NCBI GenBank assembly: GCA_910576795.1 | Contig: CAJTIX010000022.1 | Location: forward strand, 1 to 22,443 | Source of the DNA: an uncultured Bacilli bacterium | GTDB lineage: Bacteria > Bacillota_I > Bacilli_A > RF39 > UBA660 | Direction of reading: 5' to 3' | Length of the DNA stretch: 22,443 nt | Part shown: piece after piece, positions 334 through 16,188 of the stretch | Layout of the letters: each line of letters opens with the position of its first letter | How positions within the stretch are numbered: the first letter of the stretch is position 1 | Translations under genes and position numbers: made by a program | The notes under the pieces: model-generated | Told to the model about the DNA's origin: nothing | The model's input: only the letters and a program-made list of their open reading frames with translations | The model's database searches: none

Positions 334-401
334 TTTCTTTTTTGATTTCGTGTAAAAATATAGAATCACAAAAAGAAATTCGTCTCTTTTCTACTGTTAT
401 A

Positions 402-410: not shown

Positions 411-507
411 ACTTGTAAGAAATGTGGTGAATTTTATGTATTCTTTAAAATTTCCCCTTGTGGGTGACATAAAATAAAAATATAACAAAATAGAAAGAGG
501 GAATTTT

Positions 508-2181: not shown

Positions 2182-2189
2182 GTGATGGT

Positions 2190-2993: not shown

Positions 2994-3002
2994 GGTGATA
3001 GA

Positions 3003-4351: not shown

Positions 4352-4793
4352 AATAAATGGTAATACATAAAATACAGGCAAATAAACACCAGTATAGATA
4401 TGGAAGCAAGAATTTACTTGCTTTTTTGTCGATTTCTTTTGTTTCATAATAGACAAATAGAGCTGTAATTAAAGTTGCAACAGAGTCGACGAAACCTAGA
4501 AAAATGTTTTCTAATGTGAAAAAGAAAAAGGGAAATAATTGGTTTAAAATGTAATTGCATAGTAGAGATTTGTTATAACTTTTTAAATAACTAAAATGAT
4601 AAATTTGATATACTTTATAAATACTAATGGCAATCAAAATGTATAAAATGGTCCAGATGATTGGAAATAAAAAGCTAGGTGGAGCAAAAAAGGGAAGATT
4701 CAGTGATGTATAAAAACCAGTATTGGAAGAAAATAGTAGTCCACCTAAAAACCATGGAGCTAAAATAAGCAAAAATGTGATTATTTTTTTCAT
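4338..4793 (-). CDS. TspO/MBR-family membrane protein
   Basis: A 151-aa ORF with five hydrophobic segments. The N-terminal pattern FYTSLNLPFFAPPSFLFPIIWTILYILIAIS fits the TspO signature (Y..L.KP...PP...F..VW..LY). Confidence 0.6.
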   Translation of the reverse strand: MKKIITFLLILAPWFLGGLLFSSNTGFYTSLNLPFFAPPSFLFPIIWTILYILIAISIYKVYQIYHFSYLKSYNKSLLCNYILNQLFPFFFFTLENIFLGFVDSVATLITALFVYYETKEIDKKASKFLLPYLYWCLFACILCITIYFMNL

Positions 4794-4856
4794 GAAAGCA
4801 CCTCTTTACTTATCCTATGAAATAAGATACAATATTATTACTGACTGGAGGAAATT

Positions 4857-6020
4857 ATGGAAGAGATTATGCTAGAAAAAAGCGACGAACTTGTAATGAA
4901 ACTTTTGCATTTTTTCATAACAGAACAAGGATATAACCCAATTGTATTACATGGTGCAAAAAATGAAATCTGGTTAGAAAATTTAGAAAATTCTTATCCG
5001 GTTGTTCGAATTGTATCCAATTATATTCACAATGATGAACAAATGAGTTTTGATTTATATCGTACCAAACAAATATTGAAAAGAGTAAAGAAAAAAACTT
5101 GTTCTTTCCATATGGAGGCTTTATCTTTGTTTTTGAATTTAGGAGAAAGTGTTCATATAGATGACTATACACGTTTTGGAAATATCAGTTGTGCCAACAT
5201 TCAAAAAATATCGGATTTTAAAAAATATCCTTTCATTTTAGAGGAATTCCCAACGATTACGAAAAAAACAAATTTCAAAGAAAAAGGCGCAGAATTGTTT
5301 ATGAAAATTACAAGGGATATTAGTAAGAAGAATGAAGAAGAGTCTAAAAAGGCACAAAATGTATTTGAACCAAAAAAACCAGTTATGACATACTTACTGA
5401 TTGCAATTAATACCATTGTATTTTTAGCAATGTATTTATTTGGCGAAGGCAGTAGGGATGTTTCAACTTTAGTTTACTTTGGAGCAAATTACGGGGCAGC
5501 AGTCAGAAATGGAGAATATTACAGATTGCTTACCAGTGCATTTGTGCATATTGGTTTACTACATTTCATTATGAATAATTATGCTCTTTATATCATTGGT
5601 GCTCAAATTGAAAGTTTTTTGGGTAGATTTAAATATATTGTGGTTTATTTGTTAAGTGCGATTATGGGGAATTTATTATCAATCGTTTTTTCTGAATATA
5701 TCAGTGCAGGTGCAAGTGGAGCAATATTTGGTTTGTTTGGAGCATTGTTGTTCTTTGGTTACCACTACCGAATTTATTTAGGAACTGTTTTAAAATCTCA
5801 AGTAATTCCTTTGATTGTTCTCAATTTAATCATTGGATTTACCATTTCTGGAATTGATAATGCTGCTCATATTGGAGGGTTAATAGGTGGTTATTTACTC
5901 ACTATGGCAGTTGGTGTTCCATATAAATCTACAAGAGCTGAGAAGATCAATGGATGGATTTTAACCTCTATTTTTGCAGTATTTTTGGTATATATGGCTT
6001 TTCATGGAATTGTACTGTAA
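4857..6020 (+). CDS. Rhomboid-family intramembrane serine protease with a cytoplasmic N-terminal domain
   Basis: A 387-aa ORF. Rhomboid motifs are present: FVHIGLLHFIMNNYALY, the catalytic-Ser motif GASGAIFGLFGA and the catalytic-His motif AHIGGLIGG. Confidence 0.85.
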   Translation: MEEIMLEKSDELVMKLLHFFITEQGYNPIVLHGAKNEIWLENLENSYPVVRIVSNYIHNDEQMSFDLYRTKQILKRVKKKTCSFHMEALSLFLNLGESVHIDDYTRFGNISCANIQKISDFKKYPFILEEFPTITKKTNFKEKGAELFMKITRDISKKNEEESKKAQNVFEPKKPVMTYLLIAINTIVFLAMYLFGEGSRDVSTLVYFGANYGAAVRNGEYYRLLTSAFVHIGLLHFIMNNYALYIIGAQIESFLGRFKYIVVYLLSAIMGNLLSIVFSEYISAGASGAIFGLFGALLFFGYHYRIYLGTVLKSQVIPLIVLNLIIGFTISGIDNAAHIGGLIGGYLLTMAVGVPYKSTRAEKINGWILTSIFAVFLVYMAFHGIVL

Positions 6021-6035
6021 AGTAAATGTGGAAAT

Positions 6036-6068
6036 GATTATCTTTTATGGTAATCTTTCTTTTTTTTC
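6036..6068 (+). terminator. Weak intrinsic terminator after the rhomboid gene
   Basis: An imperfect stem GATTATC/GGTAATC (6036-6055) is followed by the T-rich run TTTCTTTTTTTTT. Confidence 0.35.
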
Positions 6069-6097
6069 GCTATAATGAGTTTAGATAGGTGAAGAGT

Positions 6098-7132
6098 ATG
6101 AAGAAAGCAGTTCAAGTATTGTTTGTTATATTATTTTTATTATTGATTGGTTTGGGTATTGTATTTGGTGTTTCAAAGGTGTTACAGAAAGAGAATCATT
6201 CAAATGAAGAGGAACAACCACCAGTGGAAGAAATTCCAGTTCCCAAATTACAGATTATAGATGAAGATTCTAATAGTAGACCTTATGCGGTTATGATCAA
6301 TAATCATGCGCAAGCCAGAAAGAATCATGCAGGTTTACAAGATGCATATGTCGTATATGAGATGATTGTAGAGGGTGGTTTGACACGTTTGATGGCGGTT
6401 TTTAAGGATCAAACAACAGCGCGCATTGGATCTGTTCGTAGTTCTCGTCATAATTTTTTGGATTATGCATTAGAACATGATGCGATTTATGTTCATTTTG
6501 GTTGGAGTCCAAAAGCCCAGACGGATATATCGGCATTAAAAGTTTCCAATATTAATGGATTATATGATGATGGTTTTTATCGAGATCGTAGTCTAGGTGT
6601 TGCTTATGAGCATACGGCATTTACAGATATGGAACGTATTCAAAATACAGCTACTCAGAAAGGATATCGTATGACTTCTGAACAACCTTTGTTACTTCAT
6701 TATAGTGTTGATGAGATTGGATTAGAGGAAAGGGAAGATGCGATTTTAGCTTCTTCTGTTATTCTAAGATATTCTGCATATGTAACTTCTTCTTATCAAT
6801 ATGATGAGGCTAGAAAAGTATATTTGCGTTCTGTAAATGATGAAATTCATAAAGATGCGATTACTGGTGAACAATATTATTTTAAGAACATTATTATTGC
6901 AAATGTAAATAATTATAATATGGATTCTTATGGAAGACAAAATTTAGATACGGTTGGAACAGGAACAGGCTATTATATGACAAACGGGTATGCTGTACCA
7001 ATTACTTGGAGTAAATCTTCCAGAACTGCACAAACGGTATATTCATATTTAGATGGAACCCCAATTACTGTGAATGATGGAAACACGTTTATTCAAATAT
7101 TTCCAACGAATCAAACTGCAATTATTTCATAA
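6098..7132 (+). CDS. DUF3048 (YerB-like) secreted or membrane-anchored protein
   Basis: The ORF track starts at GTG 6089. ATG 6098 has better RBS spacing (AGGTGA at 6086-6091). There is an N-terminal TM/signal segment, and PYAVMINNHAQARKNHAGLQDAYVVYEMIVEGGLTRLMAVF matches the DUF3048 core as I remember it. Confidence 0.8.
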   Translation: MKKAVQVLFVILFLLLIGLGIVFGVSKVLQKENHSNEEEQPPVEEIPVPKLQIIDEDSNSRPYAVMINNHAQARKNHAGLQDAYVVYEMIVEGGLTRLMAVFKDQTTARIGSVRSSRHNFLDYALEHDAIYVHFGWSPKAQTDISALKVSNINGLYDDGFYRDRSLGVAYEHTAFTDMERIQNTATQKGYRMTSEQPLLLHYSVDEIGLEEREDAILASSVILRYSAYVTSSYQYDEARKVYLRSVNDEIHKDAITGEQYYFKNIIIANVNNYNMDSYGRQNLDTVGTGTGYYMTNGYAVPITWSKSSRTAQTVYSYLDGTPITVNDGNTFIQIFPTNQTAIIS

Positions 7133-7158
7133 CCTATGTTGAAAAACATAGGTTTTTC
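7131..7158 (+). terminator. Rho-independent terminator
   Basis: A perfect 10-bp stem AACCTATGTT/AACATAGGTT with GAAA loop is followed by TTTTT. It overlaps the stop codon. Confidence 0.85.
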
Positions 7159-7266
7159 AATGGCTATCCTTATTTTATAGAAATAAATTTAAAAAATGTT
7201 ACAAAAATAATGATTAAATTCTAAATTTTATGATATAATGTAATAGTACTTGAGGTGAAAGTAAAA

Positions 7267-7779
7267 ATGGTCAATTATCATCGAGACAATCAATATATGA
7301 AATTAGTGAGTCCGATTTTAGAAAATAAAGAATTTAGTCAGTTAGAAACAGTGGTCCATCATGGTACAACTCGTATGAATCATTCTCTTAGAGTTTCTTA
7401 TTATTCTTATAAAATTGCGAAAGCTTTATGTTTGGATTATGATCAAGTTGCACGCGCTGGATTGTTGCATGATTTCTTTTTAGATCGTACTGTAGATTAT
7501 GAAAAAACAAAGGATAAAGTTTTATTATTTACAACAGGACATCCTAAGGTAGCTGCTGAGAATGCAAAAAAGTATTTTTCTTTGACGGAAAAAGAAGAAG
7601 ATATGATTAAAACTCATATGTTTCCAGTTGACTATCGTATTCCAAAATATGCAGAGAGTTGGATTATATGTGCAGTGGATAAGCTTGTAGGACTTTATGA
7701 GTTTGGGCGTAAGTTTAAATATCAACTTACATACGGATTTAATTTTTCTTTATTACTCATGTTAAATATTTTAAAATAG
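7267..7779 (+). CDS. HD-domain phosphohydrolase
   Basis: The track starts at GTG 7255. ATG 7267 sits 8 nt after RBS GAGGTGA, and an extended -10 TGATATAAT lies at 7231-7239. The motifs H..R(HSLRVS) and the HD dyad in LLHDFF are present. Confidence 0.75.
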   Translation: MVNYHRDNQYMKLVSPILENKEFSQLETVVHHGTTRMNHSLRVSYYSYKIAKALCLDYDQVARAGLLHDFFLDRTVDYEKTKDKVLLFTTGHPKVAAENAKKYFSLTEKEEDMIKTHMFPVDYRIPKYAESWIICAVDKLVGLYEFGRKFKYQLTYGFNFSLLLMLNILK

Positions 7780-7798
7780 GGTAAAACCTATTTTTTTT
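7776..7798 (+). terminator. Weak intrinsic terminator after the HD gene
   Basis: A 5-bp stem ATAGG/CCTAT is followed by a T8 run. Confidence 0.4.
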
Positions 7799-7826
7799 CG
7801 AATTCAATATGATACAATATTAACAA

Positions 7827-7902
7827 GTTCTCGTAGCTCAGCAGGATAGAGCAGTCCCCTCCTAAGGGACCGATACGGGTTCGAGTCCTGTCGGGAACAC
7901 CA
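7827..7902 (+). tRNA. tRNA-Arg (anticodon CCT), CCA encoded
   Basis: Folded by hand into a cloverleaf: acceptor GTTCTCG/CGGGAAC, D-arm GCTC..GAGC, anticodon stem GTCCC/GGGAC with loop CTCCTAA (anticodon CCT), T-arm ACGGG-TTCGAGT-CCTGT, discriminator A and CCA. Confidence 0.9.
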
Positions 7903-7915
7903 TTTATGGACAATT

Positions 7916-7940
7916 AAACTGATACTATACATCAGTTTTT
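7916..7940 (+). terminator. Intrinsic terminator after tRNA-Arg
   Basis: An 8-bp stem AAACTGAT/ATCAGTTT with a 7-nt loop runs into TTTTT. Confidence 0.6.
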
Positions 7941-7995
7941 GTTTATGTGTAAATATTATTTAGAAAATAATTTATGAAAATAAGAGGAAAGTATT

Positions 7996-8253
7996 ATGGT
8001 AGATTGTAATGAATTATATCGTCTGATTGGTAAAAATTTATCAAATATTCGTCATAAGTTTGGAATTGGGACTCAAGCGAAATTGTCAGAAGATACAAAT
8101 TTAAGTATGAGTTTTATTTCACAGATTGAAAGCCCAAATGTTGATAAAGGGATATCAATAGACACATTATTTTTAATTAGCCAACAATATTGTATAGATA
8201 TTCGTAGGTTTTTTGATGATTATGAAAAGTTAATGTCACTAGAAAAAGAATAA
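7996..8253 (+). CDS. XRE-family helix-turn-helix transcriptional regulator
   Basis: An 85-aa ORF with RBS AGAGGAAA. LRHKFGIGTQAKLSEDTNLSMSFISQIES fits the HTH_3 pattern (Q..LA....S.S.IS.IE). It is the first gene after the tRNA. Confidence 0.65.
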   Translation: MVDCNELYRLIGKNLSNIRHKFGIGTQAKLSEDTNLSMSFISQIESPNVDKGISIDTLFLISQQYCIDIRRFFDDYEKLMSLEKE

Positions 8254-8455
8254 TTTTAACTCTCTTTCACATTTTTCGATGGTAAGTGACCGATATGATT
8301 TTAAATTTAGCTAGGACACTGATAGTTTATTTACTATTGTTATTTAAGTTAAGTTTTTTTGTTTTGTTTATAATATATATTTTTTATTAATTTCCGAACT
8401 ATCTTTTAAAAAAAGAAAAACTTATGTTATAATACCAACTAGGAGTTGTGATGTT

Positions 8456-9040
8456 GTGCTGCAAGTAAATAGAAATGGTGCCTTGAAAATACCAAAGGAA
8501 ATTGAATTATATGAGACCAATTCTAATAGTATAGATGATGCGATTGCAATTAAAAAAGCTTTGGCGATTGCAAATGAGCAAAAAATAAATACAAATAAAT
8601 TAAAGGAACAATTGGAAATGGAAGACCAAGATCTTCAAATGATTTCTAAGATTCCATTCAATGCAAATGATTTAATGGTAATTACAGTAGTGAAAAAATT
8701 AGGTGCTTATGTAATTGCTGTGACAGAGAAATCACCCAAAAAATTTAGAGGTGTATTTGTCAACCGTATGCAAAATTATTGTTTGGATGCTTTAGAGTTA
8801 TTATTACAAGCCAATTTTACTCGAATGGATTCTCAAGCAAACAAGATGATACGAGACCAATTTCAAAAAGAAGCTATTGTAAAATTAAAATTGCTAGGTT
8901 ATGTTGCCATGGTAGCGCAGAGTTCCAATTGTATTTTAATGCGTCAATATAAGCAAATATCCATTCAACTCGCAGAGGCGATTAATTTGATTGTTGCTTG
9001 GAAAAAGAGTGATGATGAAAGATGGCGTAAGAAAATTTAG
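8456..9040 (+). CDS. avd: Avd-like DGR accessory protein (four-helix-bundle family) with an N-terminal extension; start uncertain
   Basis: It lies directly upstream of the TR. The C-terminal ~120 aa (AVTEKSPKKFRGVFVNRMQNYCLDALELLLQAN ... ISIQLAEAINLIVAWKKS, basic tail) parallel the BPP-1 Avd layout (P+K motif in helix 1-2, basic C-terminus) as I remember it. GTG 8456 follows AGGAG (8441-8445) by 10 nt. In-frame ATGs at 8615 and 8639 would give a more typical Avd size. Confidence 0.55.
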   Translation: MLQVNRNGALKIPKEIELYETNSNSIDDAIAIKKALAIANEQKINTNKLKEQLEMEDQDLQMISKIPFNANDLMVITVVKKLGAYVIAVTEKSPKKFRGVFVNRMQNYCLDALELLLQANFTRMDSQANKMIRDQFQKEAIVKLKLLGYVAMVAQSSNCILMRQYKQISIQLAEAINLIVAWKKSDDERWRKKI

Positions 9041-9410
9041 GATTTTAGACTGAAAGGTCTTTGATTAAGGAGAAAATTTAAATTGTGCGTTTTTGTTTAG
9101 CCCCCTAGTTGTGCTCGCGCGCGTCGTTAACAAAAACGGTAATAGAAACTAAAACAATGTAAGAAAACGGAATGGTGGGGCGCGTCCAGATTCACTTTTG
9201 AAGAGATTTTTTAATAAATCTAGAAAACAGATGAGAAAAGTTTATTTTAGGTAAAATAAATCCGTGTTGTAAGGTGAAGGAATTTTCTTCTTTTCCAATC
9301 GCTAAAAGATCACTCTCAGGTGCGATGGAAAAATACATAAACACTCACACAAACAACGAATGTATGCATTCTTTGGGCGTTATAAGGGGTGTTTTTTTAA
9401 AGGAGTATTT
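9041..9410 (+). ncRNA. Putative DGR template RNA (TR plus 3' spacer region)
   Basis: This non-coding interval between avd and the RT contains the TR (9116-9192). About 215 nt of spacer follows, with small stems such as AGATTT/AAATCT and CCAATCGC/GCGATGG. The exact RNA ends are unknown. Confidence 0.5.
9116..9192 (+). repeat. DGR template repeat (TR)
   Basis: It is 77 nt and 66/77 identical to 10714-10790. All 11 differences are A in this copy. It is intergenic and contains an in-frame TAA, so it is the non-coding template copy. Confidence 0.92.
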
Positions 9411-10442
9411 ATGAATTTAGAACAAATTTTTACGTTTGAAAATTTATATCAGGCATATCAGGCATGTCGTAAGTCAAAACAACATAAAGGGGAAGTCATC
9501 CGTTTCGAAACCAATTTATCTGTAAATCTATATCAATTGATGAAAGATCTTTATGCCAAAAAATATTGCCTTGGCAAGTATAAACAATTTTATATTTATG
9601 AACCAAAGCAAAGATTGATAGAGGCTTTGCCTTTTAAAGATCGAGTTGTAATTCGGTGTTTTTGTGAAGTTTGTTTAAAACCTAAGGTAGAGAAAAAGTT
9701 GATCTATGACAATTGTGCATGTCGTAAAAATAAAGGAACAACATTTGCGATTGAAAGGTTACATCAATTTTTAAGGAAAGTATATTGGAAGCAAAATAAC
9801 CATCATTTTTATTTTTTAAAGTGTGATATTCATAAATATTTTCCTAGTATCAATCATGATATTTTATTACATTTATTGAAGAAGATTCCTTTTTCAGAAG
9901 ATGAGATGTGGATGATTCAAAAGTTGATTCAGGAGCAACCAAATAATGCGAGTAGGGGTCTACCGCTTGGAAATCAGTCTAGCCAATGGTTTGCCCTTTA
10001 TTATTTAAATGAAATAGATCGTTATGTGAAAGAGGTATTACGTGTAAAATATTATGTAAGATATATGGATGATATGATATTGATTCATTGGGATAAGAAT
10101 TTTTTAATTCATTGTAAACATGAAATAAACCGTTTATGCCATGAGGTATTGGATTTAGAACTCAATCAAAAAACGCAAATTGGCATGGTGAAAAATGGGG
10201 TTGATTTTTTAGGATACCGGCATATTGTTAGTCCTAGTGGGAAAGTAGTGATGAAACTCAGATATTCTTCAAAACAAAGAATGAAAAAACATTTGAAAAC
10301 ATTACGAAAATTATATCGTAAGAAAATTGTAGATGAATCCTATGTATTGATTCGTAAAAACGCCTTTTATAATCATGTCAAAAACACAAGTGAATCTTCC
10401 AAATGGTGGAGCGAATTATTTTTAGCTGAAGAAAAAATGTAA
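9411..10442 (+). CDS. DGR-type reverse transcriptase
   Basis: ATG 9411 sits 5 nt after AGGAG (the track ORF from 9360 has no RBS). The 343-aa protein has the RT motifs FYIYEPKQRLIEALPFKDRVV and KCDIHKYFPSI. It also has the DGR-specific motif 4 LGNQSSQ (9966-9986) and the catalytic YMDD (10062-10073). There is no maturase or endonuclease extension. Confidence 0.9.
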   Translation: MNLEQIFTFENLYQAYQACRKSKQHKGEVIRFETNLSVNLYQLMKDLYAKKYCLGKYKQFYIYEPKQRLIEALPFKDRVVIRCFCEVCLKPKVEKKLIYDNCACRKNKGTTFAIERLHQFLRKVYWKQNNHHFYFLKCDIHKYFPSINHDILLHLLKKIPFSEDEMWMIQKLIQEQPNNASRGLPLGNQSSQWFALYYLNEIDRYVKEVLRVKYYVRYMDDMILIHWDKNFLIHCKHEINRLCHEVLDLELNQKTQIGMVKNGVDFLGYRHIVSPSGKVVMKLRYSSKQRMKKHLKTLRKLYRKKIVDESYVLIRKNAFYNHVKNTSESSKWWSELFLAEEKM

Positions 10443-10504
10443 AAAAATGACAAAATTTGTCTACAATGAGCAAAATTGTGTTATGATATAGATGGTGATT
10501 GACT

Positions 10505-12433
10505 ATGTTAGATTTTACATTTCCAGAAATAAATCAAATATTTGGTGATAAACAATCAGATATATTTAAAGCATACGGAACGAAGTGTGCCATATCGGAT
10601 TTTGCTATTTTATTAGGTGGTTTTGTAGCAAATGGAATATATACAAGTGAGGGAAATACTCTAAAAGATCGTACTGGTTATTGGTGGACCAGAACTTCTG
10701 ATGGAGATAATGACGCGCGCGTCGTTATCAGGAACGGTAATAGAGACTTAGACAGTGTAAGGAAGCGGTATGGTGGGGCGCGTCCAGCTTTACCATACTC
10801 ATCCATCTCTTCTTTCTCCTCGAACGGAGTGAGAGGGGCTAATGGGCTTCTTGAAGTTGAGTTTGGAGAATATCCACAAACTGTTGTAACAGATATCTTT
10901 TCAAATTCATTGGAAAATGTGTACCAACAAGGTGTACTACAGATCGTACAAAAGTATACAACGGATTCAGTTAATTATTCTGATTATGACACGGATTTGC
11001 AGATTCGTGAGTTTAGCGTGTACGAATATATAGGAGAAAAGTATATTCGCTTTTTGGGTGACCAAAATGCAAGTGGTGAAACGCTTTCTAATGGGGCTCA
11101 AGTTGAAATTGGAAAGCCCTATTGGGTGAAAGTTGAGCCAATTCGTTGGTTAGTAGATGAAAGAAATGATTTTGCCATCGCCAAAAAAATATTATTTGCA
11201 GGTGTACAATTCAATCATATTAGAAACTATATGGGAGATTTTTTACAAACAACGATTAAAAAATTCATGGATCAATTTTTTTCAAAAGAAATAATAATCA
11301 ATACAAATAACCTAACAAGGGTAGTGGAACAAGAGAAAGACTTGAATGGTAAAAATTTAAGAAAACAGAACCCATATGGATTCCATTTTGAATCTGTATC
11401 TGAAGAAGATATCATAAGGGGTGCTTTGGAAAGTAACGTATCTGTATTCTTACATGGTAGGTCAAGCGAAGGAAAATCGGCAAGGGTAAAACAATTTGAT
11501 CCAGACTGTGAAATTCTATATATGAGAAACGCAACACCAGATAGCTTGAATGGAAAAAGTGTTTATAATGCCGCAACAGGGGAAATGATTGATGTACCAC
11601 CTACTTGGTATTCACGTGTATTAGAAAAATGCGAAACAGAACCAAATAAGATTCATATTGTATTTTTTGATGAACTAACCAATGCCCTTCCTTCTATTCA
11701 AGGGATGGCCTTTAATATTGTATTAGATGGTGAAGTGAATGGAAAATGGAAATTGCCATCTAATGCTAGAATTGTAGCGGCTGGAAATGATTTAAATGAT
11801 TCATTGGCTGCGAATCAAATGGCAGAGCCATTGTTCAATCGTTTCGCCCATGTTTATATTCATACAACGGTAGAGCAGTGGTTAAAATGGGCATCCACAC
11901 CTGCAAATTACTATGAAAGATTGGACTATAAAGAAGAGAATCAAAATATGAAAATTCATCCCTCTATATATGCTTATGTTGCGTATAAATCCTATAGTGG
12001 AATGGATGTATTAAGAACACCATATACAGGTGATAAACCAAATGCCGATCCAAGAAAGTGGGAAATGGCCTCTAAAATCTTATATAAAACGGGACAACCT
12101 GAAATGTTAAGAGCATTAGTTGGTAATGAATTAACAAGGGATTTTGTAGCGTTTGCAAAATCACAGGTAATTAGTGTAAAAGATGTCATTGAACATAATT
12201 ATTCAGAGAGCGATTTTCAAATGGATTTATCCCAAAAATTTGCAACAGCAGTGGGACTATCCTCTGTAGATGATGCCAATTTTGAAGTAGTAAGAGAATT
12301 TATGAAACAAGTTGGGGCAGAACCAAGAGCTGCTTTTGAAACAATGTGGGCATATGGAGATGAGAAAAGATTAGAGCGCCTTTTGGAATTACAAATGATG
12401 GAACATAATCTTCAAGGAGGAATGAAAAAATGA
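10505..12433 (+). CDS. DGR target protein: an N-terminal VR-bearing putative lectin-like ligand-binding domain fused to a MoxR-like AAA+ ATPase
   Basis: The track starts at TTG 10499; ATG 10505 follows GGTGA by 6 nt. Using track numbering, the VR spans codons 72-98 (YWWTRTSDGDNDARVVIRNGNRDLDSVRKRYGGARPAL). Walker A is GRSSEGKS (aa 320-327, nt 11456-11479), Walker B is IVFFDE (aa 387-392) and the sensor-1-like motif is ARIVAAGND. MAEPLFNRF parallels the MoxR LP.A..DRF motif. There is no signal peptide or TM segment. Confidence 0.85.
   Translation: MLDFTFPEINQIFGDKQSDIFKAYGTKCAISDFAILLGGFVANGIYTSEGNTLKDRTGYWWTRTSDGDNDARVVIRNGNRDLDSVRKRYGGARPALPYSSISSFSSNGVRGANGLLEVEFGEYPQTVVTDIFSNSLENVYQQGVLQIVQKYTTDSVNYSDYDTDLQIREFSVYEYIGEKYIRFLGDQNASGETLSNGAQVEIGKPYWVKVEPIRWLVDERNDFAIAKKILFAGVQFNHIRNYMGDFLQTTIKKFMDQFFSKEIIINTNNLTRVVEQEKDLNGKNLRKQNPYGFHFESVSEEDIIRGALESNVSVFLHGRSSEGKSARVKQFDPDCEILYMRNATPDSLNGKSVYNAATGEMIDVPPTWYSRVLEKCETEPNKIHIVFFDELTNALPSIQGMAFNIVLDGEVNGKWKLPSNARIVAAGNDLNDSLAANQMAEPLFNRFAHVYIHTTVEQWLKWASTPANYYERLDYKEENQNMKIHPSIYAYVAYKSYSGMDVLRTPYTGDKPNADPRKWEMASKILYKTGQPEMLRALVGNELTRDFVAFAKSQVISVKDVIEHNYSESDFQMDLSQKFATAVGLSSVDDANFEVVREFMKQVGAEPRAAFETMWAYGDEKRLERLLELQMMEHNLQGGMKK
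10714..10790 (+). repeat. DGR variable repeat (VR) with a GC-rich IMH-like 3' end
   Basis: This is the coding copy of the 77-nt repeat. It differs from the TR only where the TR has A. The 3' GGTGGGGCGCGTCCAG is a GC island in AT-rich DNA. Confidence 0.92.
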
Positions 12434-12831
12434 ACCAAGAAAGATTCAATTTATTGGAAAATTATATAAAGGTTGGTGTATCTCCATTATTAGTAAAAAA
12501 TATATCATCTCATTCATTTCGAAATTCTGTTGTGATTGAGTCCAATATAAAACAATCAGAACTAAATGGACACTATGAAAATACCCTATTTTGTCCACCT
12601 ATGTGGTACCAAGATTTGCTACAAAAAAGTAAAAATGGAACTGTTGTTTTGGTGATTGAAAATATCAATGAAATAAGGGTAGAAGAACAGACAAAATTTA
12701 TAGAAATCCTCAAATACAAAAAAGTGAGTACATTTGATTTGCCAAAAAATTGTTTGATAGTAGTTACTTGTTCTGATGCTAGTATATATAAAATAAATGA
12801 AGAAGTTTATTCTTTATTGGCCCAAATATAA
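12430..12831 (+). CDS. Small protein paralogous to the C-terminal half of the upstream AAA+ core; lacks Walker A and has a degenerate Walker B
   Basis: The ATGA start/stop overlap with the target gene indicates translational coupling. PPMWYQDLLQK...VVLVIENINE...DLPKNCLIVVTCSD aligns by eye with PPTWYSRVLEK...IHIVFFDELTN...KLPSNARIVAAGND of the upstream protein. Confidence 0.6.
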   Translation: MNQERFNLLENYIKVGVSPLLVKNISSHSFRNSVVIESNIKQSELNGHYENTLFCPPMWYQDLLQKSKNGTVVLVIENINEIRVEEQTKFIEILKYKKVSTFDLPKNCLIVVTCSDASIYKINEEVYSLLAQI

Positions 12832-12840
12832 GGATAGAAT

Positions 12841-14271
12841 ATGAATATAGAATTACTGAAAAGAAAATTACTCGTAAAATATCCTTTCTTTGGAAGTATA
12901 ATTGCGCATTCTAACTGTGTTGTAGAACCATCGATTGAAACTGCAGGGACAGATGGTACGAATATTTATTATAATCCGAATTATATGGAAACTCTTACAG
13001 AGGATGAACAAATATTTGTATTCGCTCATGAAATTAGTCATATTGCATTTAGTCATATGGATAGAAGTGCTGGAAAAGATCGAAAACTCTGGAATATCGC
13101 AACTGATGCGGTTGTGAATGCTTTTCTAAAACAGGATGGTCTAACTGCAGTGAAGGGTATTGTTGACATGGAAGATGCGATTGATTATGATGCCGAAGAA
13201 ATGTATCAAAAACTATTAGCTCAAAAGCAACAAGATGGCAAACAAGGAAATCAGAGCAATGAATCTAAAACACAAAGTGGACAAAACAATTCCAATTCGT
13301 CTTCTAATAATACACAAAATGGTAAAGAAGAAAAACAGGATGCAAATCATGATGTTGGACATGATACACATTCTATGTGGGATAAGGCGATAGAGAAAAA
13401 ACAAAAAGAACAGTTAGAAGAAAGCTCTGAACAATCTAGTACTTCAAATGAATTCAAAGATTTCCTGGATAAGATAAGTAAAATGTTTTCAAAGAAAAAG
13501 GAAAAATCAGAACAACAACCGAATGAAAAAGTAAATCAAGAGAATATCAAGAATGAAGAAATTAAAAAAATAACAGAATTAGGTGAAAAAAGAGCATTTC
13601 AACAAAATAGGGTTGAACGAAAAAAACAACTAGAAGAATTGAGACAAGCATTGATTCATCAATCACAAGGGCATGGAAGTGATACCAATAGTCAAAAAAT
13701 AAATATAACGGATATTGGGATATCGGAACCACTTATTGATTGGCGCATGTTACTAAAAGAGGCAGTTCAATATGATGTGGATTGGTCTTATCAAAATGCA
13801 GGAATAGAAGATGGCGTTGTAACTGCATATTTGGAAGAGATACCAAGACCAGAAACAGAGATTGTTTTAGATACAAGTGGTTCCATCAATGAAACACTTC
13901 TTAGAAATTTTTTAAGAGAATGTAAAAACATTTTACAAAATTCTAAAGTGAAAGTAGGTTGTTTTGATACAAAATTTTACGGTTTTACCGAGATCAAGCA
14001 GTTATCCGATATTGATTATTTACCCTTTTATGGTAGAGGTGGAACTAACTTTGAAGTAGCAGTAAATGCTTTTACAAGAAGAGTAGAAAATAAGATTATT
14101 TTTACAGATGGAGATGCAGATATGCCAACTACAAATATAGATGCGATTTGGATTGTATTTGGAAATCATAAAATTCAACCCAAAGGAGGAAGGGTTATTT
14201 ATATCAATGCAGAACAACTTCAAGCATTGGCATCTATGTATTTAATAAATGATAAGGGAAGGTCTAGATGA
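12841..14271 (+). CDS. Putative zinc metallopeptidase domain (DUF2201_N-like, HExxH) - low-complexity linker - VWA-like domain (DUF2201-like, MIDAS DxSGS)
   Basis: It starts 9 nt after the previous stop. The N-terminus KYPFFGSII...TAGTDGTNIYYNP...FVFAHEISHIAFSHM...WNIATDAVVN contains HEISH at 13027-13041. Residues ~125-290 are Q/N/S/E/K-rich. The C-terminus IVLDTSGSINE (DTSGS at 13870-13884)...GRGGTNFE...IIFTDGDADMP is a VWA-like domain. This domain pair is the classic partner of MoxR ATPases. Confidence 0.85.
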   Translation: MNIELLKRKLLVKYPFFGSIIAHSNCVVEPSIETAGTDGTNIYYNPNYMETLTEDEQIFVFAHEISHIAFSHMDRSAGKDRKLWNIATDAVVNAFLKQDGLTAVKGIVDMEDAIDYDAEEMYQKLLAQKQQDGKQGNQSNESKTQSGQNNSNSSSNNTQNGKEEKQDANHDVGHDTHSMWDKAIEKKQKEQLEESSEQSSTSNEFKDFLDKISKMFSKKKEKSEQQPNEKVNQENIKNEEIKKITELGEKRAFQQNRVERKKQLEELRQALIHQSQGHGSDTNSQKINITDIGISEPLIDWRMLLKEAVQYDVDWSYQNAGIEDGVVTAYLEEIPRPETEIVLDTSGSINETLLRNFLRECKNILQNSKVKVGCFDTKFYGFTEIKQLSDIDYLPFYGRGGTNFEVAVNAFTRRVENKIIFTDGDADMPTTNIDAIWIVFGNHKIQPKGGRVIYINAEQLQALASMYLINDKGRSR

Positions 14272-14376: not shown

Positions 14377-14430
14377 AAATCTATCAATTAAGGATAAGAA
14401 GAGGTTGAATAATGGAAAGAGGGAGTGAAT

Positions 14431-14958
14431 ATGAACAACTATATCGATGAAAATACACCATTTGGAATTCAAAATCAACATAATTATTCAACAATTATAC
14501 CAACAGGAGAATGCATTACCTATTTAGTACAATATTGCTGCGATGAGTACAATAAATTTATCGCACTTACAGAAGAGGTTGAAAAAAACAAAGAGCAACA
14601 TGGGGAATATAATTATAGTTTTAAAAAAGGAAACTCAGTTTTTGAAGTTTCTTTAAGGGGAAAAATGTATACAAATGTTATTTGCCGTGATATGGAAGAA
14701 TTTGAAGAAGCAACTCACGAAAAAGGTTTAAAGGAAATGAGTAGTTTAGAAATCAAAATGCATTTGAATTTTAAAAGGGATCGGGAAGATGTAGGTTCAG
14801 AACATCAAAATGAATTTGTCATCACATTCAGGCCTTATGAAATTTCATTTACTAGAAAATCAAACTATAATGAAACAATGATGAATCAAATTGAAATGAA
14901 TATAGATGAAGTTTTAAAGAGATTTCCATCTATTAATAGCATTTTTTCTTCTAAGTAG
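14431..14958 (+). CDS. Hypothetical protein
   Basis: ATG 14431 sits 5 nt after AGAGGGAG (the track starts at GTG 14425). The 175-aa protein matches no motif I recognise. Confidence 0.6.
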   Translation: MNNYIDENTPFGIQNQHNYSTIIPTGECITYLVQYCCDEYNKFIALTEEVEKNKEQHGEYNYSFKKGNSVFEVSLRGKMYTNVICRDMEEFEEATHEKGLKEMSSLEIKMHLNFKRDREDVGSEHQNEFVITFRPYEISFTRKSNYNETMMNQIEMNIDEVLKRFPSINSIFSSK

Positions 14959-14966
14959 GAGATTTT

Positions 14967-15278
14967 ATGGCTATTACCAAAGAGTATAAAGATTATATCT
15001 TAGAAAAATTGGAGTGTTTAGGTTCGATTACATACCGTCCTATGATGGGAGGATATTTATTTTACTATCAAAATATTTATTTTGGTGGAATTTATGAAGA
15101 AGAACGTTTTTTGATTAAAGAAACATCAAGTAATGAAAAATATCACTTGAAAGAAGCTTTGCCTTATCAGGGTGCGAAAATGATGTATTGGTTGAAAGAT
15201 TTAGAGGACTCTGAACAAGTGAAAAACATTATTGTAGATACCTGCAAAGAATTGAAACCGAAAAAAAAGGCAGATTGA
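14967..15278 (+). CDS. TfoX N-terminal-domain protein
   Basis: A 103-aa ORF. ITKEYKDYILEKLECLGSITYRPMMGGYLFYYQNIYFGGIYEEERFLIK fits the TfoX_N pattern (..L....V..R.MFGG.G.Y..G..F..I.dd.L.lK). Confidence 0.65.
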   Translation: MAITKEYKDYILEKLECLGSITYRPMMGGYLFYYQNIYFGGIYEEERFLIKETSSNEKYHLKEALPYQGAKMMYWLKDLEDSEQVKNIIVDTCKELKPKKKAD

Positions 15279-15312: not shown

Positions 15313-16188
15313 ATGATTTTAAATGTAAGTGGAAGAACAGATATTGTGGCATTTTATTCTGATTGGTTTATGAAAAGATATCAAGAAGGATTTGTAGATG
15401 TGAGAAATCCTTTTTATCCAAAACAAATCAGTCGTATTTATTTTGAAGATGTGGATGCGATTGTTTTTTGTACCAAAAATCCTATTCCAATTTTAAATCA
15501 ATTGAAAATGATTGAAAAACCCATTCTTTTTCATGTTACCTTAACCCCTTATTTAAAAGAAATCGAACCCAATGTTCCACCAAAAGGAAAAATCATAGAG
15601 GCAATCAAACAGTTATCTTCTATTGTTGGAATTGACCATTTATGTATACGTTATGATCCTGTCTTTTTAAGTGATCAATATGATATTTCCTATCATAAAA
15701 AAGCTTTTGATCATATGTGTTCTTTGTTAAATGGATTTGTAAAAACCATTATTGTATCCTTTATAGATGATTATAAAAATGTTCGTAAAAATCAATTGAT
15801 ATTGAAGACAAGAGAGTTTACCGATGAAGATTATAGAGAAATCGGAATTTCATTTAGTGAAAGTGCAAAACGAAATGGTATGACAGTGCAAACGTGTTAT
15901 GAGGCAAGAAATTTAACAGAATATGGATTTAGAAAAGGGGAGTGCTTATCTAAATCTTGTGCGTATCAGTTAACAGGTAAAACTTATCCAAAATGGGGTG
16001 CTAGAAAATGTGGTTGTATCGAAATGGTCGATATTGGTGTTTACAATTCCTGTAAGCATTTTTGTAAGTATTGTTATGCTAATTATGATGAAAAATTAGT
16101 CATGTCACATTTTGGAAATCATAATCCGAGTAGTAGTTTATTAATTGGTAATTTAGAACAGGATGACGTTATAAAAAGAAGAAAATGA
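15313..16188 (+). CDS. DUF1848-family protein with a C-terminal CX3CX2C cluster
   Basis: A 291-aa ORF. The N-terminus ILNVSGRTDIVAFYSDWFMKRYQEGFVDVRNPF is typical of DUF1848 as I remember it. The cluster CKHFCKYC lies at 16051-16074. Confidence 0.7.
   Translation: MILNVSGRTDIVAFYSDWFMKRYQEGFVDVRNPFYPKQISRIYFEDVDAIVFCTKNPIPILNQLKMIEKPILFHVTLTPYLKEIEPNVPPKGKIIEAIKQLSSIVGIDHLCIRYDPVFLSDQYDISYHKKAFDHMCSLLNGFVKTIIVSFIDDYKNVRKNQLILKTREFTDEDYREIGISFSESAKRNGMTVQTCYEARNLTEYGFRKGECLSKSCAYQLTGKTYPKWGARKCGCIEMVDIGVYNSCKHFCKYCYANYDEKLVMSHFGNHNPSSSLLIGNLEQDDVIKRRK

What the first reader, a model, noticed from the sequence alone, without database searches (positions are those of the whole stretch)
8456..14271. 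DGR that diversifies a cytoplasmic MoxR-type AAA+ ATPase in an operon with a VWA-metallopeptidase: candidate hypervariable intracellular sensing or defence system
Seen in the sequence:
- The genes lie in one orientation with tight spacing: avd-like gene, TR, RT, target, small ORF and VWA protein.
- The target gene and the small ORF share an ATGA overlap, and a 9-nt gap separates the small ORF from the VWA gene.
- The protein carrying the VR has no signal peptide or TM segment.
- After the VR domain it carries a complete P-loop ATPase core: GRSSEGKS, IVFFDE and ARIVAAGND.
- The last gene encodes an HExxH domain (HEISH) plus a VWA domain with MIDAS DTSGS.

Established knowledge:
- Classical DGR targets (Bordetella phage BPP-1 Mtd, Treponema TvpA, Legionella LdtA) are surface-displayed or phage-tail ligand-binding proteins with a C-terminal VR.
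- MoxR AAA+ and VWA proteins form obligate functional pairs.
- Comparative genomics has proposed vWA-MoxR modules, and DGR-diversified NTPase sensors, as biological-conflict systems.

Inference: a mutable lectin-like domain recognises a variable intracellular ligand such as a phage protein. It signals through the AAA+ motor to the VWA-tethered zincin peptidase effector. I cannot judge novelty without database searches. As far as I know, a DGR VR fused directly to a MoxR ATPase with a DUF2201-type partner has not been experimentally characterised.
Basis: partly seen in the sequence, partly recalled or inferred. Interest (0 to 1): 0.95.

Follow-up and report, generated by a model that had tools for sequence, protein, structure and literature searches.

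The report
DGR-varied sensor domain on AAA+ ATPase
A gut bacterium uses a mutagenic reverse-transcriptase cassette to rewrite a small binding patch at the front of a cytoplasmic ATP-driven motor protein that is paired with a protease-like partner; this looks like a new architecture of hypervariable intracellular recognition system, but its function has not been tested.

Summary
Window 8456-14271 holds a complete diversity-generating retroelement (DGR): Avd, TR 9116-9195 and RT. Its VR (10714-10793) is codons 72-98 of a 644-aa protein with no predicted membrane segment.

- **DGR activity.** All 10 TR/VR differences in the variable part are at TR adenines. A sister strain (~96-97% identical DNA) has a different VR that follows its own TR. 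Eleven related loci show the same pattern.
- **Small ORF.** It is a degenerate, motif-less paralogue of that ATPase core.
- **Last gene.** It is DUF2201_N (HExxH) plus DUF2201-VWA (MIDAS); both motifs are conserved.
- **Distribution.** The ATPase/DUF2201 module occurs in at least 235 species and in phages. Only about 21% of loci carry the DGR. DGR-less loci often hold tandem paralogues that differ mainly in the VR-equivalent segment.
- **TR stop codons.** 10 of 12 TRs examined carry in-frame stops, and 5 of 13 DGR-positive loci have a stop in the VR.

The "variable intracellular recognition" reading is supported. "Defence" remains inference. This is a new variant of known DGR-NTPase conflict systems.

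The parts
7827..7902 (+). tRNA-Arg(CCT) directly upstream of the cassette. Context only; possible island border.
   Evidence: ARAGORN. The indel relative to sister strain L079 starts right after it.
7996..8253 (+). Small HTH (Cro/C1-type) gene. Accessory, not a core part.
   Evidence: HTH_19 E 7e-6, below the Pfam cut-off. The whole ~7900-8340 stretch is absent from the sister strain, which keeps the cassette. Not found in any of 77 related loci.
8456..9040 (+). Avd-like DGR accessory protein (194 aa, with a conserved ~70-aa N-terminal extension).
   Evidence: PHROG phrog_3206 'Avd protein of DGR' E 2e-13. NCBIfam DivGenRetAVD 1.9e-6 and Pfam bAvd 2.7e-4, both below their cut-offs. Conserved upstream of the RT in related loci.
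9116..9195 (+). Template repeat (TR). The adenine-mutagenised part is 9130-9171; the invariant G+C-rich 3' part is 9172-9195, ending GATTCAC (IMH*-like). It has an in-frame TAA when read in the target's frame.
9360..10442 (+). DGR reverse transcriptase. YMDD and the LGNQSSQ motif are visible in the translation. Probable start is the ATG at 9411.
   Evidence: RVT_1 9e-17; phrog_1423 1.9e-101. The best phage relative is the DGR RT of phage nd12, 40% identity. Sequence.
10499..12433 (+). DGR target: a 644-aa protein with no predicted signal peptide or membrane segment (probable ATG at 10505). N-terminal variable domain plus AAA+ ATPase.
10499..10828 (+). N-terminal DUF6273-like (reported C-type-lectin-like) domain, aa 1-110, which carries the VR.
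   Evidence: Weak DUF6273 match aa 58-98, E 0.11. Homologue P0001 matches DUF6273 at 27.3 bits, above the cut-off of 23.5. Model pLDDT 91-98 over aa 11-100, lower at the two ends. DUF6273 is described as C-lectin-like with the VR at its end (PMC10743442; bioRxiv 10.1101/2024.10.15.618418).
10714..10793 (+). Variable repeat (VR), codons 72-98. Variable codons are 77-91 (10728-10769). The 3' invariant part ends GCTTTAC (IMH-like).
   Evidence: Hypervariable across homologues: entropy 1.49 against 0.28 for the rest. Differs from the sister strain at 11 of 80 nt, all at TR-A sites.
10850..11293 (+). Second, beta-rich domain (aa 118-265) of unknown type, followed by a disordered linker (aa 266-300).
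   Evidence: AF2 model: strands 118-228 and helix 252-264 at high confidence; pLDDT below 50 at aa 270-281. Conserved motifs EYGEYPQ and VEPIxW.
11402..11863 (+). AAA+ alpha/beta core (aa 302-455). Walker A GRSSEGKS 11456-11479; Walker B IVFFDE 11657-11674; sensor-1-like AAGN.
   Evidence: Foldseek probability 1.0 to MCM AAA+ subunits and to phage dynein-related, MoxR-like and N4 gp24-like ATPases. Profile hit to NtrC AAA+ at E 0.0025 with Walker A and B aligned. Homologues at 35-40% identity pass the AAA_5 or AAA_3 cut-offs. phrog_1297 ATPase 4.9e-39.
11870..12415 (+). Helical lid and C-terminal helical domain (aa 458-639).
   Evidence: AF2 model. Highly conserved in the family.
12430..12831 (+). 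Small ORF (133 aa): a degenerate paralogue of the target's own AAA+ core, without Walker A or Walker B.
   Evidence: hhalign A4 against A3: probability 98%, E 1.7e-13, aligned to target aa 303-452. Conserved in 32 of 56 loci. ATGA overlap and Shine-Dalgarno-like sequence.
12841..14271 (+). DUF2201 protein (476 aa). Zincin-like DUF2201_N spans 12862-13401 (HEISH 13027-13041), then a low-complexity linker, then the DUF2201 VWA domain 13861-14205 (MIDAS DTSGS 13870-13884).
   Evidence: DUF2201_N 1e-30 and DUF2201 4.7e-12. HExxH and DxSxS conserved in 58-63 of 63 homologues. Follows the target in 54 of 56 loci.

Best explanation
This is a chromosomal DGR coupled to a three-protein ATP-driven machine.

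**DGR step.** The Avd-TR-RT unit copies the TR into cDNA with errors at adenines. It replaces a 15-codon patch (aa 77-91) on the N-terminal DUF6273-type domain of a protein predicted to be cytoplasmic.

**Machine.** That domain is the specificity (ligand or substrate recognition) module of an AAA_5/MoxR-like AAA+ ATPase. I infer that the ATPase works together with an inactive AAA+ paralogue (the small ORF) and with a DUF2201 partner. The partner would dock through its MIDAS-VWA domain and bring a zincin-like HExxH domain.

**Function.** The DGR therefore changes what the machine recognises inside the cell. DGR-less relatives get the same result from tandem paralogues with divergent N-terminal domains. 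The most likely class of ligand is fast-evolving foreign protein from phages or other mobile elements, which makes this a conflict system. The outcome would be ATP-dependent remodelling and/or proteolysis.

**On/off behaviour.** Because the TR carries in-frame stop codons, retrohoming also frequently switches the target off.

**Shown versus inferred.** Shown: the anatomy, the homologies, adenine-specific diversification, module conservation, the location of variability, and the null alleles. Inferred: physical complex formation, the role of the protease, the identity of the ligands, and any defence role.
For: **DGR activity**
- A-specific TR/VR differences occur in the window and in 11 related loci: 149 of 172 mismatches at A, most of the rest being a fixed 3' end difference.
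- The sister strain has a near-identical TR with one private A>C change, and its own VR carries that change. Its VR differs from the window VR at 11 of 80 nt, against about 96-97% identity in the flanks.

**Recognition module**
- The VR segment is the entropy peak of the family, 1.49 against 0.28 bits.
- In DGR-less loci, 2-3 tandem paralogues share one small ORF and one DUF2201 gene. In most of these pairs the ATPase part is 88-99% identical while the VR-equivalent segment is 24-60% identical.
- A distant homologue carries ankyrin repeats in place of this domain (P0266).
- DUF6273 is a known DGR-diversified, lectin-like binding domain in gut phages (PMC10743442).

**Motor and partner**
- AAA+ fold with intact Walker A and B.
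- The small ORF is an inactive AAA+ paralogue.
- The DUF2201 partner is adjacent in 54 of 56 loci, with HExxH and MIDAS conserved.

**Cytoplasmic location**
- No membrane-like segment and no signal-like N-terminus.

**Long association**
- RT and target identities to the window fall together across loci: 62-71% against 58-70%.

**Precedent**
- DGR-diversified sensors linked to MoxR or STAND NTPases have been proposed as conflict systems (PMC7159879; PMC10907252).
Against: - The target, the small ORF and the DUF2201 protein match no known defence family (PADLOC).
- The neighbours are housekeeping genes in the window and housekeeping genes plus transposases in L080, not a defence island.
- There is no recognisable toxic effector.
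- MoxR-VWA pairs are classically maturation chaperones. The phage version of this module has been proposed to serve virion assembly (PMC7824862).
- Only 10 of 47 loci with enough upstream DNA carry the DGR.
- Roughly half of DGR-positive loci have a disrupted target: stops in L007, L008, L019, L022 and L079; a frameshift I infer for L029 from a 1-nt TR/VR length difference; and a VR deletion in L006. Decay would explain this as well as switching would.
- The C-lectin fold of the N-terminal domain and the MoxR subclass were not directly demonstrated for this protein.
- No interaction data exist.
Confidence: 0.55

Rival explanations
1. The module is a chaperone or maturation machine rather than immunity. 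It would be a MoxR-like chaperone with a VWA-peptidase co-chaperone, of phage ancestry, that remodels or processes particular cellular or prophage proteins. The N-terminal domain would be a substrate adaptor, and the DGR would merely broaden or retune the substrate range.
For: - N4-like phage LUZ7 has the same three-gene order: ATPase, small protein, DUF2201_N+VWA.
- 574 phage records match the ATPase and 354 match the DUF2201 protein; PHROG hits are.
- Iyer et al. propose a virion-assembly and processing role for the MoxR plus metallopeptidase-vWA pair of jumbo phages (PMC7824862).
- Most cellular loci lack a DGR, and there is no PADLOC hit.
- One related cassette lies next to a prophage lysis module (L082).
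Against: - A housekeeping substrate would not favour hypermutation, divergent tandem paralogues, or frequent null alleles.
- The CLec-ATPase fusion is almost absent from viral contigs: one full-length relative in IMG/VR by the pattern scan.
- The N-terminal domain has no tblastn match in phage records.
Confidence: 0.2
2. The DGR here is a decaying passenger. A phage-derived DGR with its DUF6273 module became fused to a host ATPase gene, and it now mainly damages the target. The variation seen would be neutral or deleterious and not used.
For: - 5 of 13 DGR-positive loci have a stop in the VR. One more probably has a frameshift, one has the VR deleted, and two have lost or truncated the RT.
- A large lineage has a fixed VR (AIVVSKSGDRSWFNVSKRSGGYRPALP) across many metagenomes.
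- The RT is closest to gut-phage DGR RTs.
Against: - RT, Avd, TR and VR are intact and syntenic across loci whose targets are only 58-70% identical, which indicates long co-retention.
- VR changes stay strictly at TR adenines with the scaffold residues conserved.
- The sister-strain VR tracks its own TR, so homing is recent.
- DGR-less paralogue arrays vary the same segment by another route.
Confidence: 0.12
3. The system performs self/non-self or kin discrimination, or tunes a regulatory pathway. The variable domain would recognise a polymorphic cellular protein rather than phage proteins, as proposed as an alternative for DGR-STAND systems.
For: - This alternative is raised for DGR-diversified NTPase sensors in PMC10907252.
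- The protein is predicted to be cytoplasmic.
- No defence-island context was seen.
Against: - The hosts are unicellular gut Bacilli and Clostridia.
- No polymorphic partner gene is conserved next to the module.
- Nothing in the data speaks specifically for this reading.
Confidence: 0.08

Closest known systems
DGR-associated VMAP ternary conflict systems (MoxR + vWA + VMAP) of cyanobacteria and gammaproteobacteria (Kaur et al. 2020, PMC7159879; Doré et al. 2024, PMC10907252)
   Same: A DGR diversifies a lectin-like domain of a protein predicted to be cytoplasmic, and that protein works with a MoxR-like AAA+ ATPase, a vWA protein and a peptidase. The proposed logic is a variable sensor feeding an ATP-driven transducer.
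   Different: - There the VR is C-terminal, of FGS/CLec type, and sits on the vWA protein or on a separate target; the MoxR is a separate gene and a VMAP protein is present.
- Here the VR is N-terminal, DUF6273-like, and fused to the ATPase itself.
- Here the partner is DUF2201_N zincin plus DUF2201 VWA. No VMAP or bpMoxR Pfam match was found.
- An extra inactive AAA+ paralogue is present.
- The hosts are unicellular gut Firmicutes.
[quoted passage not shown] 2018, PMC5758913)
   Same: The DGR-variable domain and an AAA-type ATPase are in one polypeptide.
   Different: - Doré et al. place signal detection for those targets in the C-terminal region (PMC10907252); here the VR is N-terminal.
- The RT clade and the host phyla differ.
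- No DUF2201 partner is mentioned in the papers I read.
- I made no direct sequence comparison.
Tentaclins and other DUF6273 DGR targets of gut phages (Baykov et al. 2023, PMC10743442; bioRxiv 10.1101/2024.10.15.618418)
   Same: [quoted passage not shown]
- The best phage RT match to the window RT is phage nd12 from that study, at 40% identity.
- In the model here the VR region forms a beta-hairpin, as described for tentaclins.
   Different: - Tentaclins are virion receptor-binding proteins with Ig-like domains after the variable domain.
- Here the domain is followed by an AAA+ ATPase and the gene is chromosomal.
- The N-terminal 270 aa has no tblastn match in phage records.
Phage MoxR-like ATPase + metallopeptidase-vWA pair (N4 gp24-like ATPase module; group 2.2 jumbo phages; Iyer et al. 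2021, PMC7824862)
   Same: - The ATPase is homologous: phrog_1297 at 4.9e-39, and about 24-28% identity by tblastn.
- The DUF2201_N+DUF2201 protein is homologous: phrog_1314 at 5.7e-63.
- LUZ7 has the same ATPase / small protein / DUF2201 order.
   Different: - The phage ATPases are about 350 aa, with no N-terminal variable domain and no DGR.
- The phage small protein shows no detectable similarity to the small ORF here.
- The proposed phage role is virion assembly.

Membership tests
Diversity-generating retroelement (DGR) | Reverse transcriptase of the DGR type | tested here: met
   RVT_1 9e-17; phrog_1423 1.9e-101. The closest phage hits are DGR RTs from nd12, VP585 and FP_Brigit. YMDD and LGNQSSQ are visible in the translation.
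Diversity-generating retroelement (DGR) | TR/VR pair whose differences lie at TR adenines | tested here: met
   10 of 10 differences in the variable part are at A. Pooled over 13 loci, 149 of 172 mismatches are at A.
Diversity-generating retroelement (DGR) | Accessory protein (Avd) next to the TR and RT | tested here: met
   phrog_3206 'Avd protein of DGR' 2e-13. The Pfam and NCBIfam Avd models match below their cut-offs. Conserved in related cassettes.
Diversity-generating retroelement (DGR) | IMH/IMH*-like invariant G+C-rich 3' end that distinguishes VR from TR | tested here: met
   The TR ends ...CCAGATTCAC(TTT) and the VR ends ...CCAGCTTTAC(CTT). The first of these differences (GAT against GCT) recurs in all 13 pairs and the following ones in the 10 pairs whose alignment reaches them. 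Function is not testable here. No hairpin was found downstream of the VR.
Diversity-generating retroelement (DGR) | Evidence of actual TR-to-VR transfer and diversification | tested here: met
   The sister strain L079 has a private TR change that is mirrored in its own VR. Its VR differs from the window VR at 11 of 80 nt, all at A sites. Read-level heterogeneity was not testable.
MoxR-like / AAA_5 AAA+ ATPase | AAA+ fold with Walker A, Walker B and sensor-1 | tested here: met
   AF2 model pLDDT 91. Foldseek probability 1.0 to AAA+ proteins. Motifs aligned to NtrC AAA+. K326 and D391 are nearly invariant across 61 sequences.
MoxR-like / AAA_5 AAA+ ATPase | Significant match to the family models (Pfam AAA_3 or AAA_5) | tested here: inconclusive
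   The window protein has no hit at E 0.01. Homologues at 35-40% identity pass AAA_5 (P0220 29.1 bits, P0260 24.2, P0228 22.6) or AAA_3 (P0266 32.3). The top Foldseek PDB hits are MCM subunits, not MoxR. BFVD hits are named dynein-related or COG0714 MoxR-like.
MoxR-like / AAA_5 AAA+ ATPase | Adjacent VWA (MIDAS) partner gene | tested here: met
   DUF2201 VWA with an invariant DxSxS. Adjacent in 54 of 56 loci.
MoxR-like / AAA_5 AAA+ ATPase | Hexameric ATPase activity and physical complex with the VWA partner | not testable with these tools
   No multimer prediction or biochemistry was available.
DUF2201_N + DUF2201 (zincin-like + VWA-like) | Both Pfam domains above the cut-off, with HExxH and MIDAS present | tested here: met
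   DUF2201_N 107.7 bits (cut-off 23.2) and DUF2201 46.5 bits (cut-off 26.4). H63, E64 and H67 are conserved in 58-62 of 63 homologues; D344, S346 and S348 in 63 of 63.
DUF6273 (C-lectin-like DGR target domain) | Match to PF19789 above the cut-off, with the VR at the C-terminal end of the domain | tested here: inconclusive
   Window protein: E 0.11, 12.8 bits, aa 58-98 against profile positions 127-168. Homologue P0001: 27.3 bits, above the cut-off of 23.5. Some precomputed homologue hits. Only 1 of 25 N-terminal segments matched at E 0.01. The C-lectin fold itself was not tested, because the full-length Foldseek lists are filled by AAA+ hits.
VMAP ternary conflict system | VMAP protein plus a vWA protein carrying the variable or effector domain, with a separate MoxR | tested here: not met
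   No VMAP, bpMoxR or related Pfam match at E 0.01 in any cassette ORF scanned. The VR is on the ATPase, not on the vWA protein.
Known anti-phage defence systems (PADLOC-DB v2) | Match of the module proteins to a defence-system model | tested here: not met
   No hit for the Avd-like protein, the target, the small ORF or the DUF2201 protein. Only the RT matches generic RT/DRT models.

The most novel reading that the evidence does not exclude
Gut Firmicutes carry a previously undescribed intracellular 'hypervariable receptor' immune module. A DGR rewrites the ligand-binding patch fused directly to an AAA+ motor, and that motor drives a VWA-tethered zincin protease against foreign proteins. The stop codons built into the TR make the same retrohoming event a programmed on/off switch that limits the cost or autoimmunity of the system. 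DGR-less relatives encode the equivalent repertoire 'in the germline' as tandem paralogues.
Probability: 0.22. Interest if true: 0.85.

Novelty: new variant of a known kind. Interest (0 to 1): 0.62.

Why it matters
Most characterised DGR targets are surface or virion binding proteins. Cytoplasmic NTPase-linked targets have so far been proposed mainly for multicellular cyanobacteria, purple sulfur bacteria and CPR lineages.

This cassette extends the idea to common unicellular gut Bacilli and Clostridia, with a compact and different architecture: the variable domain is fused to the motor itself, alongside an inactive motor paralogue and a zincin-VWA partner.

It offers a natural comparison within one protein family: DGR hypermutation, tandem paralogue arrays, and lineages with a fixed VR. 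It also links the poorly understood DUF2201/MoxR-like module, which is widespread in phages, to variable target recognition.

The TR-encoded stop codons, if functional, would be a new way for a DGR to act as a phase switch.

The module is small, about 5.8 kb, and could be tested in a heterologous host.

Tried and rejected
- **Direct family searches on the target.** Pfam, NCBIfam and PADLOC gave nothing significant.
- **PDB sequence searches.** The single protein and the shallow profile A2 gave nothing. The deeper profile A3 gave only a weak NtrC hit. The N-terminal profile A5 gave spurious repeat-protein (Scone) hits.
- **First AF2 run.** With 23 close homologues the mean pLDDT was 50, so I discarded the model. 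The second run with 61 diverse sequences reached pLDDT 91.
- **Foldseek on the full-length model.** It lists only AAA+ proteins, MCM first, at about 30 Å rmsd. It cannot settle MoxR against other clade members and cannot test the N-terminal fold.
- **Promoter and terminator scan.** No more sites than in shuffled sequence.
- **Hairpin after the VR.** None found; there is only a palindrome at the VR 5' edge.
- **N-terminal 270 aa against phage records.** No match.
- **Prophage origin of the window.** Rejected. The flanks are proS, lspA, rluD-like, a rhomboid gene, queH and lexA, and only one full-length relative turned up in IMG/VR.
- **HTH gene as part of the system.** Rejected because it is absent from the sister strain.
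- **DUF1848, TfoX_N and orf177 as parts.** Rejected because they are not conserved in any other locus, despite a PADLOC RTasDUF1848 hit.
- **VMAP ternary membership.** Rejected; see the membership test.
- **Look-ups.** Two encoding-contig runs failed for lack of a slot. The first was repeated successfully.

Full report
**1. What is in the window**

Between 8456 and 14271 six features lie on the + strand:
- an Avd-like gene, 8456-9040;
- a non-coding TR, 9116-9195;
- an RT gene, 9360-10442;
- a 644-aa ORF, 10499-12433;
- a 133-aa ORF, 12430-12831;
- a 476-aa ORF, 12841-14271.

Both downstream genes have Shine-Dalgarno-like sequences. The target probably starts at the ATG at 10505, which lines up with the start of its homologues.

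The flanks are housekeeping genes. Upstream are prolyl-tRNA synthetase, signal peptidase II, a pseudouridine synthase, TspO, a rhomboid, DUF3048 and an HD protein. Downstream are queH, lexA and a MazG-like gene. A tRNA-Arg gene (7827-7902) sits just before the cassette. This is chromosomal DNA of a low-GC (~30%) bacterium, not a prophage.

**2. The DGR is real and has been active**

- **The repeat.** TR and VR are an 80-nt repeat. All ten differences in the variable part (TR positions 15-56) are at TR adenines. The two differences near the 3' end (GATTCAC in the TR, GCTTTAC in the VR) recur in most related loci, so they are a fixed IMH*/IMH-like distinction rather than mutagenesis.
- **The RT.** It matches RVT_1 and a phage DGR-RT PHROG at 1.9e-101 and shows YMDD and LGNQSSQ. 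Among phage records its nearest relative is the DGR RT of gut phage nd12.
- **The Avd assignment.** It rests on a PHROG hit at 2e-13. The Pfam and NCBIfam Avd models match only below their cut-offs.
- **Related loci.** Eleven loci from other species have the same Avd-TR-RT-target order and a 77-84-nt TR/VR pair at target codons ~71-100. Pooled with the window and the sister strain, 149 of 172 mismatches are at TR adenines.
- **The sister strain.** A syntenic contig (L079) is ~96-97% identical in DNA. Its TR differs from the window's by a single A>C, and its own VR carries that same C. Its VR differs from the window VR at 11 of 80 positions, all at TR-A sites. This is direct comparative evidence for recent TR-to-VR transfer.

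**3. The target protein**

- **No direct hits.** The window protein gives no significant Pfam, NCBIfam, PADLOC or PDB-sequence hit.
- **Size of the family.** More than 3000 proteins match in the metagenome collection. 3995 representatives at 50% identity match the ATPase part. At least 235 GTDB species genomes encode a relative, mostly gut and rumen Bacilli and Clostridia, including the cultured Zhenpiania hominis.
- **Structure model.** With a 61-sequence alignment AlphaFold2 gave pLDDT 91. The model has an N-terminal domain (aa 1-110) in which the VR forms a beta-hairpin region, a second beta-rich domain (118-265), a disordered linker, an alpha/beta core (302-455), and a helical C-terminal part.
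- **The C-terminal half is AAA+.** Foldseek places it among AAA+ proteins with probability 1.0. The PDB list is headed by MCM subunits; the viral list by phage 'dynein-related AAA', N4 gp24-like and 'COG0714 MoxR-like' ATPases.
- **Supporting sequence evidence.** A family profile aligns Walker A, Walker B and the sensor-1 region to NtrC AAA+ domains at E 0.0025. Family members at 35-40% identity pass the Pfam cut-offs for AAA_5 or AAA_3.
- **Conclusion on the ATPase.** "AAA+ ATPase of the AAA_5/MoxR-like kind" is supported. Strict MoxR membership is not settled.
- **The N-terminal domain.** It matches DUF6273 only weakly in the window protein (E 0.11) but above the cut-off in a homologue. DUF6273 is described in the literature as a C-lectin-like DGR target domain of gut phages with the VR at its end (PMC10743442; bioRxiv 10.1101/2024.10.15.618418). 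I could not test the fold directly.
- **Localisation.** There is no membrane-like stretch (maximum KD19 1.50, inside a confidently folded region) and the N-terminus is acidic.

**4. The two partner genes**

- **Small ORF.** It is not an orphan. A profile of 25 orthologues aligns to aa 303-452 of the target family at 98% probability, E 1.7e-13. Walker A and Walker B are replaced. It is an inactive paralogue of the ATPase core.
- **Last gene.** It is DUF2201_N (zincin-like, HEISH) plus DUF2201 (VWA-like, DTSGS), separated by a low-complexity linker. HExxH and the MIDAS residues are conserved in 58-63 of 63 homologues.
- **Conservation.** The DUF2201 gene follows the target in 54 of 56 loci with enough downstream DNA. 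The small ORF is detected in 32 of 56; it is missing from the more distant, mostly Clostridia-labelled loci, where the system is two genes.

**5. Relatives without a DGR, and phage relatives**

- **DGR frequency.** Only 10 of 47 loci with at least 2.5 kb upstream carry the RT or Avd. All are in the branch closest to the window, and RT and target identities decline together. The association is old but not universal.
- **Paralogue arrays.** Fourteen DGR-less loci show two or three tandem target copies, most beside a single small-ORF/DUF2201 pair. In most of the pairs compared, the ATPase part is 88-99% identical while the VR-equivalent segment is 24-60% identical.
- **Other N-terminal arrangements.** One distant homologue has ankyrin repeats instead of this domain, and some proteins carry the N-terminal domain twice.
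- **What this shows.** All of this points to the N-terminal domain as the specificity module and to selection for varying it.
- **Phage relatives.** The ATPase and the DUF2201 protein have many phage relatives. N4-like phage LUZ7 has the same ATPase / small protein / DUF2201 order, with the DUF2201 gene mis-annotated as an HNH endonuclease. Iyer et al. described a MoxR plus metallopeptidase-vWA pair in jumbo phages and proposed a virion assembly and processing role (PMC7824862).
- **The fusion is cellular.** The variable-domain fusion is almost absent from viral contigs, with one full-length relative found. That copy lies beside a prophage lysis module.

**6. An unexpected feature: stops in the TR**

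Read in the target's frame, 10 of 12 TRs contain one or two stop codons (TAA, TAG or TGA) at recurring positions, and further AAA and AGA codons can mutate to stops. A faithful or lightly mutated copy therefore truncates the target.

Five of 13 DGR-positive loci (L007, L008, L019, L022 and the sister strain L079) have a stop in the VR, each at a codon that is a stop in the locus's own TR. L029 has a 1-nt length difference between VR and TR, which I take to be a frameshift. L006 has lost the VR segment. No stop was seen in the N-terminal segment I translated for any DGR-less locus.

The DGR literature I could search stresses that AAY codons avoid stops (bioRxiv 10.1101/2024.11.15.621889). I found no description of TR-encoded stops. 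This may be a built-in off switch, or it may be a sign of decay.

**7. How it most likely works**

- **Shown.** A DGR rewrites 15 codons of the N-terminal domain of an AAA+ ATPase that has no predicted signal peptide or membrane segment. This ATPase is nearly always encoded with a zincin-VWA protein, and in this branch also with an inactive AAA+ paralogue. The family's variability is concentrated in that N-terminal patch.
- **Inferred.** The patch binds a ligand or substrate. The ATPase (possibly as a mixed ring with the paralogue) and the VWA-zincin partner then remodel or cleave something. The ligands are fast-evolving foreign proteins, so the module is a conflict system.
- **Confidence.** About 0.55 for the variable-recognition machine as stated. 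The defence role alone is roughly 0.35-0.4 likely.
- **Rivals.** A non-immune chaperone or processing module of phage ancestry (0.2); a decaying passenger DGR (0.12); kin or regulatory recognition (0.08).

**8. Comparison and novelty**

The closest published systems are these:
- DGR-linked VMAP/MoxR ternary systems (PMC7159879) and DGR-STAND systems (PMC10907252);
- CLec-AAA targets of CPR bacteria (cited in PMC10907252);
- DUF6273 tentaclins (PMC10743442);
- the phage MoxR/metallopeptidase-vWA pair (PMC7824862).

The present cassette combines elements of all four in an arrangement that none of the papers I could search describes. Searches for DUF2201 with DGR terms returned nothing, and a 2024 DGR survey does not mention ATPase or VWA targets. 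The N-terminal-VR targets with long uncharacterised C-terminal regions counted in earlier surveys (PMC5758913; bioRxiv 10.1101/2020.04.01.020958) could include members of this family. I could not check that.

I rate it a new variant of a known kind, interest 0.62. It is clearly real and testable, and it has an intriguing switch-like feature. It is conceptually anticipated by prior work, and no functional evidence exists.

Noticed in passing
window 9116-9195 (TR); VRs of L007, L008, L019, L022 and L079: Read in the target frame, 10 of 12 TRs carry one or two in-frame stop codons at recurring positions (TAA in the window). Five of 13 DGR-positive loci have a stop in the VR at exactly such a codon, so retrohoming often yields null alleles. 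This could be an on/off switch.
   Followed up: partly
L079 9677-11605 (sister strain of the window): The target is split into 81-aa and 534-aa ORFs by the retained TAA. The gene caller started the second ORF at codon 111, so a product lacking the N-terminal variable domain might be made.
   Followed up: partly
L020, L024, L030, L033-L035, L037-L039, L044, L045 and others: DGR-less loci hold 2-3 tandem target paralogues beside one small-ORF/DUF2201 pair. In most pairs the ATPase part is 88-99% identical and the VR-equivalent segment 24-60% identical. The two copies in L024 are 100% identical.
   Followed up: yes
window ~7900-8340 (HTH gene 7996-8253): This stretch, directly after tRNA-Arg, is absent from the sister strain L079, which keeps the whole cassette. 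It is an indel at a tRNA border.
   Followed up: partly
window 15313-16188 (also 14425-14958 and 14967-15278): A DUF1848 protein (E 4e-86) also hits the PADLOC model 'RTasDUF1848' (5.6e-29), two genes downstream of the DGR module. It is preceded by an unknown 177-aa ORF and a TfoX_N-like ORF. None of these is conserved next to the module in other species.
   Followed up: partly
L078 4507-5712 (Pseudomonas phage LUZ7 gp039) and phrog_1314: The phage gene annotated 'HNH endonuclease' is in fact DUF2201_N + DUF2201/VWA_CoxE. The PHROG family carries the same doubtful label.
   Followed up: yes
P0266; P0001, P0003, P0093; P0125, P0130: Architectural variants of the ATPase family. One has ankyrin repeats in place of the N-terminal domain. 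Three proteins of ~910 aa have two tandem N-terminal domains. Two proteins have a copy of that domain on each side of the ATPase.
   Followed up: partly
L002, L006, L016: Signs of DGR decay. The RT match is partial with no TR (L002). The VR segment is deleted from the target although Avd and RT are present (L006). Avd is present without an RT (L016).
   Followed up: partly
P0007, P0009, P0011-P0020 and others: A large lineage seen in many metagenomes shares one identical VR peptide (AIVVSKSGDRSWFNVSKRSGGYRPALP), so there is no diversification there. I did not establish whether these loci lack the DGR.
   Followed up: no
L082 (IMG/VR contig) 1-11622: The only full-length relative found in viral contigs has the complete cassette next to tail-fibre-like, holin and endolysin genes. 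Its Avd gene is frameshifted. It is either at a prophage end or in the adjoining host flank.
   Followed up: partly
window 10706-10729: A 12+12-nt palindrome (GATAATGACGCG/CGCGTCGTTATC) straddles the 5' boundary of the VR. No hairpin was found downstream of the VR.
   Followed up: no
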